From Convolutriloba macropyga (taxonomy: Eukaryota): 64,000 nt of DNA. The translations under genes were made by a program, and so were the position numbers. The first letter of the stretch is position 1; every line of letters starts with the position of its first letter. Positions 33,801 to 36,613 of this stretch are shown here, in pieces. Under the pieces are notes generated by a model that saw nothing but the letters and a program-made list of their open reading frames with translations, was not told the origin of the DNA and did no database searches. The stretch spans positions 33,294,001 through 33,358,000 of the forward strand of contig NC_134476.1 of assembly GCF_964194025.1 (NCBI RefSeq), in the 5' to 3' direction.

Positions 33801-36613
33801 AATTCAATTGAGTACCCAAATCCATTAGATGAATTCCCAGATCTTACAGACAACTTAATTAGCCTTAACTTAGCACAAGAGCAGCAAAAAGATGCAGACA
33901 TTAGAACAGTAATAAGCTGGATTCAACAAAATAATCAACAACCTGACTTAAAGTATGCTACAACAAGCTTAAAAACGTATCACAAGCACTTAAACAGATT
34001 ACTTCTTGAAGGGAATGTCTTATACCGGAATTTTTATGATGATACTGGAAAAGTACTTCATAAACAATTCTGTGTACCTAAGCATTTGTGGAAAGAGACT
34101 ATATATAGGCTCCATAATTCACAAACAGCAGGTCACTCAGGCATCAAAGCAACAATTCAGGAATTTAGAAAGCGATTTTATTATCCAGGCTTCACCGAAC
34201 ATTTCATTAGCTTCATCAAAAACTGCCTCACTTGTCTTCAACTTAACAGAGTACCAAAAAGCCACATCACACCAAAGTTACAACCAGTTAGTTCTCTACA
34301 ATCATATCCAGGAGTTATGCTACAAATCGATTTAGTAGGCCCCCTAAAGTCATCACAATATAAGTATGTTCTGAGTGGAATAGATGTTTTCACAAAGTAC
34401 CTATTCGCAGTTCCATTAACAAATGGATACGCTGACACAGTAGCCCGAGAACTAGTAAAGGTGTTCTTCCAGCGCAGCTACATTCCTCAAACGATACTTA
34501 GTGACTTAGGAACCAACTTTACTTCTGAATTAATGTCAGAATTAGCAAGTTTACTAGAAGTAAAGTTAAAACATGCCTGACTAAAGCACCCTCAGACTAT
34601 TGGAGCAGTAGAACGATCTCACGGACCACTGAAACGAATTCTGAAACTTAATACAGAAGAACAATGGAAAGACTGGCATAAATATGTTCCTCTTGCAACC
34701 TTTATTCATAATACTTCATATCATTCAGCGACAAATTGTTGTCCTTCAACTTTATTCCATGGCAGAGAGCCCATAAAACCCCTTGACATACGGTTCTCCA
34801 CAAAAGTAATGGATGCAGTAGCAGTAAATTCCGATTTTGTAAATGAACTGCAAGATGCCATGATGCAAATTTTGGAGAAAACAAAGAAAAGCTAACAACT
34901 GCATACTTGAAGTACAAAAAGTATTATGATCAAAAAGCATCAGCAAAACCGATTCCGGAGAAATCATTCTGTTTACTTTTAAACCCTAAGCTACTAGAAC
35001 AATCAACAGTAATAGCTTCCCAAGTTCAGAAATGGCTACCGCTATATAAAGTAGAAAAAGTCCTTACTGATTCTAATTACATCATTCGAAAAGTAAATAC
35101 GAACTACACCCAATGTGTTCATCGCATCAGATTGAAGCCAATTCAACCAAGTGAAACTCCTGAAGATCTCGAAGTCATCAATCCTGTAAACTTTCAACCT
35201 GATCCGTCGAGAAGACAACACATGGAACCTGACCTATTTGATAAACATATCCCAGAATTAATCAATGAGCAAGAAACAGAGATACAACAATCCAAGAAAG
35301 TGAAACAAGATCCAGTCAGAGTGACCATAAATGTTCCTCTAGGTGGACCATTAGCAGGACCAGCAGTAGCAGCACCTCCAGCAGCACCACCGGCCCCACC
35401 AAGGGTAGTAGCACCAGCAGTTAGACCACGAACTGCCCCAGTTAATCTTCCAGTAATTGATTCCTCAAGCTCGGATGAAGCAATTCCAAACCTATTTAAT
35501 GAAAATAGCAGTTCAGACGAAAATTTAGCTGACCTAAACCTGGATGCAGAACAAATTGCCCAAATACCAGTTAATCCGTTAATTGCTGACGAAATTAGAC
35601 ATCAAGAACCAGAAGTTCGTGTTCCTCTTGTATCATCTTCATCAGATGATGAAATGTTCCTACCAGCTCAACGGCCTCGCCCGTCAATAGAACCATTCGA
35701 TAGTGACTCGCCTCCAGAAACACGTGAAGAACAATTTGCGTTAACTGATAGAAAATTAAGAGCCCGTCCTTATCACCCTAAACGACAACCAGAAAAAAGT
35801 GCTTTCAAATCACCAGAATACCAACAGAAGAAGAATGTCCAAGGATTTAAAATAAATAGACAAATATGGTTACACGATGAAGATAGAACAAACCCTTACC
35901 TAACCAACCAAGTTAGAAGATCAGGCAGTCCTAGACCAAAAAACGCACGAGCCAGACTGGAACAAGAAGAAAAACGTGAAGCAATAAAAGCATCAGCACA
36001 AGCAGCACAACAGTCAAATACACCAAGTAGAGAGACAAAACTAGATCAAGTTAGAGCAAGTATAGCAAAATATTCCGGGAAAAAGCCCAGCAGTTCAGCA
36101 AACAAACCAGTAACTAGATCTCAATCAAAAAAATCTTCACCAGGCTCATCTAATCAAAATTTAAACCATTTTAGTCAAGAAATAAATGCAACATATCTAA
36201 GTTCTCCAACAGATATCTTATATTCACCATACTCTTTTGCACACTGTATATCAGCAGACCTTGCAATGGCAAAGGGATTAGCCCGACAAGTCAAAAGCTG
36301 GTACCCAGCAGCCCCAAGTGCAATTAGACTTAGATATCCACCTGATATTGGCTCAGTTTTAATCTACTTCGACCCCATTTCCGAACGTAATATCTTCAGT
36401 TTAGTTACCAAATTTAGATACAACCACAAACCCACTTACGAATCAGTATTAGCAAGTCTCTATGAACTGAGAGAAATAGTAATAGATGCAGGAATTACAC
36501 ACTTAAGTCTCCCAAAACTCCCCAGTGGCTATGATAAATTGGATTTTAACATCATCTTTGAGCTTATATGCCAAGTCTTCGACCCTCTACCCATAACCAT
36601 CTATATCCATTAG
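30801..36613 (+). pseudogene. pol: Pol polyprotein: protease, dUTPase-like domain, RT, RNase H, integrase, macrodomain; several frameshifts and a stop
   Basis: ALVDTGA; LDCSQAYH and QFMDD; CDAS, KEFLA, TDNKSL; H-x6-H...CLTC, IDLVGP, SDLGTNF, VERSH; C-terminal macrodomain. Breaks near 32385, 33600, 34580 and 34870. Confidence 0.95.
36190..36613 (+). CDS. TARG1/OARD1 (Poa1p-like) macrodomain at the Pol C-terminus
   Basis: FAHCISADLAMAKGLA...IFSLVTK.RY.HKPTYE....SL..L......GITHLSLPKL..GYDKLDF matches the OARD1 pattern AHCISxDxxMxxGIA / ITK...KPTY / MPRIGCGLDxL. Confidence 0.9.

What the first reader, a model, noticed from the sequence alone, without database searches (positions are those of the whole stretch)
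36190..36613. TARG1-type macrodomain fused to the integrase C-terminus, where chromoviruses carry a chromodomain
Seen: integrase, then a long disordered P/A/S/D-rich linker, then the macrodomain. Residues matching the OARD1 catalytic Lys (LVTK) and Asp (GYD) are retained. Established: TARG1/DarG-class enzymes remove ADP-ribose from acidic residues and from thymidine in DNA. Macrodomains are reported in some retroelements, so the domain alone is not new. Inference: it could steer integration to PARylated chromatin or DNA breaks, or strip ADP-ribose from the integration complex or cDNA.
Basis: partly seen in the sequence, partly recalled or inferred. Interest (0 to 1): 0.75.

Follow-up and report, generated by a model that had tools for sequence, protein, structure and literature searches.

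The report
Retrotransposon with detachable ADP-ribose eraser
A family of jumping genes carries, at the end of its replication polyprotein, an enzyme domain that removes ADP-ribose tags, and it is probably cut free as its own small protein rather than used to aim insertion, which hints that the host fights these elements with ADP-ribose.

Summary
Confirmed, with a changed reading. The window holds a 20.7-kb Ty3/Gypsy LTR element whose pol ends in a TARG1-type macrodomain (PDB E 1e-14; model pLDDT 92, TM 0.82-0.85 to TARG1). Lys and Asp are kept. This copy is dead: a stop and a frameshift separate integrase core from macrodomain, and the phosphate-loop GxG starts with Pro. The fusion is real in relatives: 20 of 128 related proteins run from integrase core to macrodomain unbroken, 11 including RT. 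All macrodomain bearers of this group form one integrase clade.

The chromodomain analogy is weak. A hydrophobic-Asn/His-x-hydrophobic motif, like those at the other Pol junctions and at Ty1 protease sites, sits just before the domain in 18 of 23 rows (3 of 38 controls). A matrix trained on the other junctions picks that spot in 9 of 13 lineages, though not in this copy. So the domain is probably released by the element's protease as a ~150-aa ADP-ribosylhydrolase. Distant Gypsy elements carry the same domain after integrase or between RNase H and integrase; some lineages lost the catalytic residues. No report for Gypsy Pol was found in nine searches. Activity and cleavage are untested.

The parts
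27459..27463 (+). 5-bp target-site duplication, left copy (right copy 48139-48143)
   Evidence: same 5 bases flank both LTRs
27464..28329 (+). 5' LTR (TG...CA), followed at once by a TGG-starting primer-binding-site-like stretch
   Evidence: 16 differences to the 3' LTR over 867 columns
29549..30847 (+). gag-like ORF (432 aa stop to stop, ATG at 29570)
   Evidence: position only, no significant Pfam hit
30801..32411 (+). pol piece 1: aspartic protease (DTG near 31152) and weak dUTPase-like domain; ends after a frameshift
   Evidence: (Asp_protease_2 E 1.6e-6; dUTPase E 0.08; relative P0225 E 2e-4)
32366..33607 (+). pol piece 2: reverse transcriptase (FMDD at 32723) and RNase H; ends after a frameshift
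33594..34895 (+). pol piece 3: integrase H2C2 finger and DDE core, interrupted by an in-frame stop at 34578-34580 and ended by a frameshift
34847..35230 (+). integrase C-terminal (GPY/F-type, p58_C) module, start of the 588-aa ORF
   Evidence: E 1e-3, below cut-off; 55-62% identical to intact relatives
35231..36160 (+). low-complexity linker, about 310 aa, mostly not alignable between families; basic helix-like stretch near 35966-36070
36161..36193 (+). predicted protease cleavage zone: hydrophobic-Asn-x-hydrophobic motif at 36161-36172 (family position) and a second candidate at 36182-36193
   Evidence: inferred, not shown
36191..36613 (+). TARG1-type macrodomain and stop; Lys at 36410, Pro in place of first loop Gly at 36521, Asp at 36533
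35830..42964 (+). tandem duplication of 3.56 kb (units start 35830 and 39391), giving a second macrodomain copy at 39751-40174 in a 268-aa ORF without integrase
   Evidence: 53 differences in 3562 columns, none inside the macrodomain
47272..48138 (+). 3' LTR, preceded by a short purine-rich tract

Best explanation
The macrodomain is an accessory subunit of Pol in one clade of Ty3/Gypsy elements. It is translated at the end of Pol (shown for relatives as predicted ORFs), so it should be packaged in the particle with RT and integrase (inferred). The element's aspartic protease then cuts it off as a protein of about 150 aa (inferred from the junction motif). In most lineages it is an active TARG1-like hydrolase that removes ADP-ribose from the element's proteins or from single-stranded and gapped cDNA (inferred from residues and from TARG1/DarG biochemistry), most likely undoing host PARP marks that would hinder reverse transcription or integration. 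It is helpful but not essential: several lineages let the catalytic residues go. The copy in this window is a defective relic, and its own domain may be impaired by the Pro in the phosphate loop.
For: Fold and class. Unbroken core-to-macrodomain ORFs: 20 of 128 relatives, 11 with RT, among them clusters of 121, 61 and 47 member sequences. One integrase clade (29 rows, 100/99) holds all 16 macrodomain-labelled rows of this group; 4 relatives with no macrodomain in their ORF lie outside. Retention while the linker drifts: 25-41% identity in the domain where alignable, linker mostly unalignable, Lys+Asp in 10 of 10 close siblings and 20 of 27 other clade rows. Junction motif in 18 of 23 rows, 16 of them 23-27 aa before the anchor, against 7 hits in 5194 linker residues and 3 of 38 non-element macrodomains. 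Same motif near the RNase H/integrase boundary in 11 of 15 relatives and at two upstream Pol boundaries. A matrix trained only on those three boundaries puts its best linker site at the macrodomain boundary in 9 of 13 lineages, with 175-340 positions scanned each. Ty1 protease sites have hydrophobic P2/P2' and hydrophilic P1/P1' (PMC6952103). TARG1 removes ADP-ribose from Glu/Asp, thymidine and DNA ends, and needs Lys84 for the thymidine activity (PMC8501950); PARP1 marks ssDNA at unligated lagging-strand sites, removed by TARG1 (PMC11102865 abstract).
Against: No cleavage or activity was measured. The regular-expression motif was devised after looking at the sequences and the rows are related, so its binomial p-value means little. 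The trained matrix does not rank the boundary first in this window's own protein nor in 3 other lineages. The Ty1 protease is a distant (Copia-type) model; real cut sites for this clade are unknown. This copy and its 10 closest siblings fail the published TARG1 pattern at the first loop Gly. At least 4 long intact Pols (P0240, P0241, P0243, P0246) have lost the Lys and/or Asp, and P0227/P0229 lost the Asp, so catalysis is dispensable. In the IN-macrodomain-CCCH type from other hosts (P0026, P0098, P0150) no such motif lies at the boundary. Nothing here shows that the host ADP-ribosylates the element.
Confidence: 0.55

Rival explanations
1. One reading: the domain stays on integrase and, like a chromodomain, steers the integration complex to PARylated chromatin or breaks.
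For: Position after the integrase C-terminal module on a long flexible linker. TARG1 relocates to damage sites in a PAR-dependent way (PMC8501950 introduction). Catalytically degenerate versions are kept in intact Pols. Cleavage could be partial.
Against: Conserved junction motif directly before the domain. The same domain type lies between RNase H and integrase in P0081, P0133, P0059. Most lineages keep the catalytic pair, which a pure reader would not need. The degenerate lineages keep the junction motif too (P0240, P0241, P0246).
Confidence: 0.15
2. The domain is released but works as an ADP-ribose binder or decoy, or as a helper that clears PARP marks from the post-integration gaps, not as a counter-defence enzyme.
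For: Repeated loss of Lys/Asp with the fold kept; catalytically dead TARG1 and DarG still inhibit DarT by interaction (PMC9411070); recurrent loss of activity is known in viral macrodomains (PMC10221186).
Against: 20 of 27 clade rows and 16 of 16 rows from other Gypsy types keep both residues (several of the 16 are near-copies of one family).
Confidence: 0.18
3. The enzyme acts on small metabolites (O-acetyl-ADP-ribose, ADP-ribose-1''-phosphate) or on ADP-ribosylated RNA ends inside the particle.
For: TARG1-type enzymes hydrolyse O-acetyl-ADP-ribose (PMC6397177); TARG1-like folds occur in many RNA viruses.
Against: No benefit to the element is evident; yeast Poa1p ranks far below TARG1 and DarG.
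Confidence: 0.06
4. A captured passenger without function, decaying slowly.
For: It diverges faster than RT and integrase (25-41% against 58-75%) and is degenerate in several lineages.
Against: Active-site columns stay nearly fixed while the neighbouring linker is unalignable; the frame stays open to the domain's last strand in 14 of the 20 unbroken relatives.
Confidence: 0.06

Closest known systems
Human TARG1/OARD1 (C6orf130) and bacterial TARG1-like hydrolases
   Same: Fold (TM 0.78-0.85), about 30% identity, His-Cys-x-Ser loop, Thr-Lys, Pro and Asp positions.
   Different: Part of a retrotransposon Pol; first Gly of the GxG loop is Pro here and a small non-Gly residue in the 10 closest siblings; activity untested.
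DarG antitoxin macrodomain
   Same: Fold (TM 0.86) and catalytic Lys.
   Different: About 22% identity; DarG lacks the Lys/Asp dyad (PMC9411070) whereas this domain has the Asp; no toxin partner seen in the element.
Chromoviruses (Ty3/Gypsy with integrase C-terminal chromodomain)
   Same: Extra domain after the integrase C-terminal module; chromodomain is listed as a known accessory domain (PMC6338049).
   Different: No chromodomain hit; enzyme-type domain; probably cleaved off. That chromodomains stay on integrase and direct integration is recalled, not checked here.
Fish epsilon-like endogenous retroviruses with macro domain genes (Basta et al. 2009, as cited in PMC4977317)
   Same: Macrodomain carried by an LTR retroelement.
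   Different: Described there as additional ORFs of retroviruses; subtype and position could not be checked, the original paper is not held.
Other Gypsy Pol proteins with TARG1-type domains found here (P0040; P0026-type with CCCH finger; P0081, P0133, P0059)
   Same: Same domain class with Lys and Asp kept; 14 of 59 long hits carry retro-Pol Pfam domains.
   Different: Integrases only about 27% identical and outside this clade; some carry the domain between RNase H and integrase. Unnamed database records, several of them faulty gene models.
Viral macrodomains (alphavirus nsP3, coronavirus Mac1)
   Same: ADP-ribose erasers made as part of a polyprotein in a host-parasite conflict; recurrent loss of activity (PMC10221186).
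   Different: MacroD-type, 13-14% identity, lower structural rank.

Membership tests
Ty3/Gypsy LTR retrotransposon | Two LTRs with TG...CA ends and a short target-site duplication | tested here: met
Ty3/Gypsy LTR retrotransposon | Domain order PR-RT-RH-IN | tested here: met
   intact relatives
Ty3/Gypsy LTR retrotransposon | Placement in a named Gypsy clade by RT phylogeny | not tested
   no named reference elements were at hand; relates unnamed records only
TARG1-type macrodomain | Compact macro fold closest to TARG1/DarG | tested here: met
TARG1-type macrodomain | Catalytic Lys84 and Asp125 equivalents | tested here: met
TARG1-type macrodomain | Adenine-binding Asp20 and His32/Cys33/Ser35/Thr83 equivalents (PMC6397177) | tested here: met
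   Asp20 mapped through alignment with relatives, not directly to TARG1
TARG1-type macrodomain | Published pattern TKx(30,35)Px[IL]GxGxD with GxG phosphate loop (PMC6397177) | tested here: not met
   window fails (Pro); 0 of 10 siblings, 16 of 27 other clade rows and 69 of 86 short stand-alone hits match. The siblings' residue also occurs there in 11 of those 86. So this copy is TARG1-like but not canonical; many clade members are canonical.
TARG1-type macrodomain | Hydrolysis of ADP-ribose from protein, DNA or O-acetyl-ADP-ribose | not testable with these tools
   needs enzyme assays
Chromovirus | Chromodomain at integrase C-terminus | tested here: not met
   no Chromo hit in the window ORF or in 10 relatives
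Chromovirus-like targeting module | Extra domain stays on mature integrase | tested here: inconclusive
   sequence evidence points to a cleavage site; processing not observed
Envelope-carrying LTR element (errantivirus-like) | env ORF between pol and 3' LTR | tested here: inconclusive
   no long plus-strand ORF; antisense ORF pieces, one with a hydrophobic stretch, have no significant Pfam or PDB match

The most novel reading that the evidence does not exclude
Ty3/Gypsy retrotransposons have repeatedly captured TARG1-type ADP-ribosylhydrolases as protease-released particle subunits because hosts restrict retrotransposition by ADP-ribosylating element cDNA or proteins. The domain would be a transposon-encoded anti-PARP counter-defence, the eukaryotic counterpart of DarG-type protection, and its gains and losses would map an unrecognised arm of transposon control.
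Probability: 0.33. Interest if true: 0.8.

Novelty: new variant of a known kind. Interest (0 to 1): 0.55.

Why it matters
Accessory enzymes kept by a parasite usually point to the host pressure it faces. A conserved ADP-ribose eraser in Gypsy Pol, at two different positions in distant lineages, makes a direct test possible of whether ADP-ribosylation restricts retrotransposons. The natural set of canonical, altered-loop, catalytically degenerate and absent versions in sister families is a ready-made comparison. The domain is missed by Pfam in this clade, so it is likely under-annotated. The cleavage motif also warns against reading a C-terminal domain on integrase as a targeting module by position alone.

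Tried and rejected
Single-sequence fold gave pLDDT 48 and was not used. A word-based search for long proteins with the macrodomain found none, a sensitivity failure, since later found them through the integrase. Macrodomain trees are poorly resolved: a quick tree split the window's domain and P0004 from the other clade domains, but holding them together is not rejected (p 0.51) and neither is one clade of all element domains (p 0.21), so the number of captures and the donor are not established; P0025 was moved into the clade group. The Atlas added nothing beyond 'Macro/OARD1-like' and generic integrase clusters. The names and hosts of cluster members could not be looked up, so the host group stays unidentified. 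Rfam found nothing in the element. A recalled likeness of short YxLR-type linker motifs in relatives to the foamy virus Gag chromatin-binding motif could not be verified: PMC6042332 passages gave no motif letters. PMC6669543 passages gave no foamy protease site letters. No complex prediction was run: a ligand cannot be the scored partner. Rejected: annotation artefact (fold and relatives agree); fusion special to this locus (clade-wide); the duplicated stand-alone copy as a separate evolved gene (DNA identical in the domain, start supplied by the duplication junction).

Full report
1. The element. The finding lies in a Ty3/Gypsy LTR retrotransposon spanning 27464-48138. The LTRs are 866 and 867 bases, end in TG...CA, differ at 16 columns and are flanked by a 5-base duplication. 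A gag-like ORF is followed by pol in the order protease, weak dUTPase-like domain, RT, RNase H, integrase. Pol is broken by frameshifts near 32390, 33600 and 34850-34895 and by an in-frame stop at 34578-34580. The copy is therefore fairly recent but not autonomous. The host was not identified; an AT-rich, repeat-dense eukaryotic genome, probably an invertebrate animal, is my inference.

2. The domain. The last ORF (34847-36613, 588 aa) starts with the integrase C-terminal module, runs through about 310 aa of low-complexity linker and ends in the macrodomain. It matches human TARG1 chains at E 1.3e-14. With an 81-row alignment the model reaches pLDDT 92, and Foldseek ranks TARG1 first and DarG next. 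Lys and Asp align to TARG1's catalytic pair, and the Asp20, His32, Cys33, Ser35, Thr83 and Pro118 equivalents are present (roles from PMC6397177 passages). The published pattern TKx(30,35)Px[IL]GxGxD fails, because the first loop Gly is Pro. None of the 10 closest siblings that span the site has Pro or Gly there; all share one small residue that also occurs in 11 of 86 short stand-alone homologues. Of 27 more distant clade rows, 16 match the pattern and 20 keep Lys and Asp (rows not spanning both positions and the window's own record P0151 were dropped). The Pro is thus private to this copy among those seen and may impair it (inference).

3. Is the fusion real? Searches returned 128 proteins, nearly all unnamed ENA records. 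61 hold integrase core and C-terminal module; 20 of these also reach the macrodomain in one predicted ORF, 14 to its last strand, and 11 include RT. Examples are P0217 (1778 aa, 121 member sequences), P0220 (1817 aa, 61) and P0225 (1818 aa, 47). Most of the other 41 appear truncated, and a few end without the domain (judged by eye). In an integrase tree of 45 selected rows, all 16 macrodomain-labelled rows of this group fall in one 29-row clade (100/99), with four macrodomain-less relatives outside. One gain at the base of that clade is the simplest reading; the root is not inferred. Between families RT-RNase H keeps 62-75% identity to the window, the macrodomain 25-41% where BLAST aligns it, and the linker mostly does not align.

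4. Evidence for release from integrase. Just upstream of the domain's first strand, 18 of 23 hand-picked rows (one or a few per lineage) carry a hydrophobic-Asn/His-x-hydrophobic motif, 16 of them 23-27 residues before the anchor; the rest of the linkers hold 7 such motifs in 5194 residues. Among non-element or unassigned macrodomains 3 of 38 have one in the same window. The same motif lies near the RNase H/integrase boundary in 11 of 15 relatives and at the protease/dUTPase-like and dUTPase-like/RT boundaries. Because I devised the pattern after looking, I trained a weight matrix only on those three other boundaries (50 sites) and scanned each linker. Its best site fell 21-33 residues before the anchor in 9 of 13 lineages; it missed in P0183, P0227, P0229 and in the window's own protein, where a site 19 residues before the anchor ranked third. 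Ty1 protease sites have the same hydrophobic P2/P2' and hydrophilic P1/P1' profile (PMC6952103 passages). That these boundaries are the true cut sites is inferred from their position between domains.

5. Wider distribution. The macrodomain alone hits 1709 representatives. Of 59 long hits scanned, 14 carry retro-Pol domains. P0040 is a complete protease-RT-RNase H-integrase-macrodomain Pol; a second type adds a CCCH finger after the domain (several near-copies, some faulty gene models); P0081, P0133 and P0059 carry it between RNase H and integrase, P0081 with the motif on both sides. Their integrases are about 27% identical to the window's and lie outside its clade. Repeated capture or relocation is likely, but domain trees do not reject a single origin (p 0.21). 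In the CCCH type and in P0133 the motif was not found at the boundary.

6. Loss of catalysis. P0240, P0241, P0243 and P0246 keep a recognisable domain in long open Pols but lack the Lys and/or Asp; P0227 and P0229 lack the Asp. P0240 stands for 41 member sequences. Catalysis is therefore not essential in every lineage, as also reported for some viral macrodomains (PMC10221186 passages).

7. Mechanism. Shown: fold, residues, family-level fusion, clade pattern, boundary motif. Inferred: packaging, cleavage, hydrolase activity, target. TARG1 removes ADP-ribose from Glu/Asp, thymidine and DNA ends (PMC8501950 passages), and PARP1 marks ssDNA at unligated lagging-strand sites that TARG1 clears (PMC11102865 abstract and opening). 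Reverse transcription and integration make such single-stranded and gapped DNA (established knowledge). A released eraser acting on the element's cDNA or proteins is my best explanation (0.55).

8. Literature. Nine searches found no description of a TARG1-type domain in Gypsy Pol. The one relevant passage says some fish endogenous retroviruses have extra ORFs with macro domain proteins (PMC4977317). PMC6338049 (part 1 of 4 plus passages) lists accessory domains without macrodomains; PMC4245714 (passages) notes sporadic TARG1 in invertebrates and many viral homologues, with no mention of transposons; PMC8556966 returned no match for my terms; PMC9411070 was seen as passages. Basta 2009, Kojima 2019 and Sharifi 2013 are not held, no supplements were read, and Repbase or GyDB entries could not be checked, so prior annotation is quite possible.

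9. Verdict. A real, clade-wide accessory domain, correctly spotted, in a dead copy. It works most likely as a released ADP-ribose eraser, not as a chromodomain substitute. New variant of a known kind (macrodomain carried by a retroelement); interest 0.55.

Noticed in passing
window 35830-42964: 3.56-kb tandem duplication inside the element. The 53 differences are uneven: about 5 in 35857-37445, most in 37446-39390. Could be a recombinant of two copies, gene conversion or an assembly join.
   Followed up: partly
window 36860-37080, 37926-38147, 38995-39215 (and their duplicates): A ~200-base unit recurs every ~1067 bases in the non-coding 3' region, 72-79% identical, ending in a nearly invariant short inverted repeat. 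No Rfam match. Possible packaging, dimerisation or protein-binding signal.
   Followed up: partly
window 43593-44811 and 45318-45701, minus strand: Antisense ORF pieces of 126-138 aa between pol and the 3' LTR, one with a transmembrane-like stretch followed by a basic run. No significant Pfam or PDB match. May be remnants of an antisense accessory gene.
   Followed up: partly
window about 35966-36070; relatives: The linker holds a basic helix-like segment shared across families, and several relatives have short YxLR-type motifs; a likeness to foamy virus chromatin-binding motifs is recalled only. If real, these could be the actual chromatin tether left on integrase.
   Followed up: partly
window about 31520-31800: Weak dUTPase-like domain between protease and RT (E 0.08; E 2e-4 in P0225), bounded by the same junction motifs; looks degenerate.
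   Followed up: partly
P0199, P0202, P0261: Macrodomain-less relatives end in a shared basic C-terminal motif instead of the domain.
   Followed up: no
window 12351-23780: A ~5-6 kb tandem repeat with nested ~560-base satellite units and a 160-170 aa minus-strand ORF without Pfam match.
   Followed up: no
window 24099-25822: Short ORFs with a P-loop-like motif and a possible capsid-like piece; by recall reminiscent of Polinton remnants, not confirmed (one search gave only sub-threshold hits).
   Followed up: partly
window 305-754 and about 49500-56300: A GIY-YIG fragment (E 0.004, below cut-off), and degraded minus-strand ORFs that by recall resemble a BEL/Pao element (no Pfam support).
   Followed up: partly
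window 48218-48393: Assembly gap of 176 N about 80 bases after the 3' LTR.
   Followed up: no
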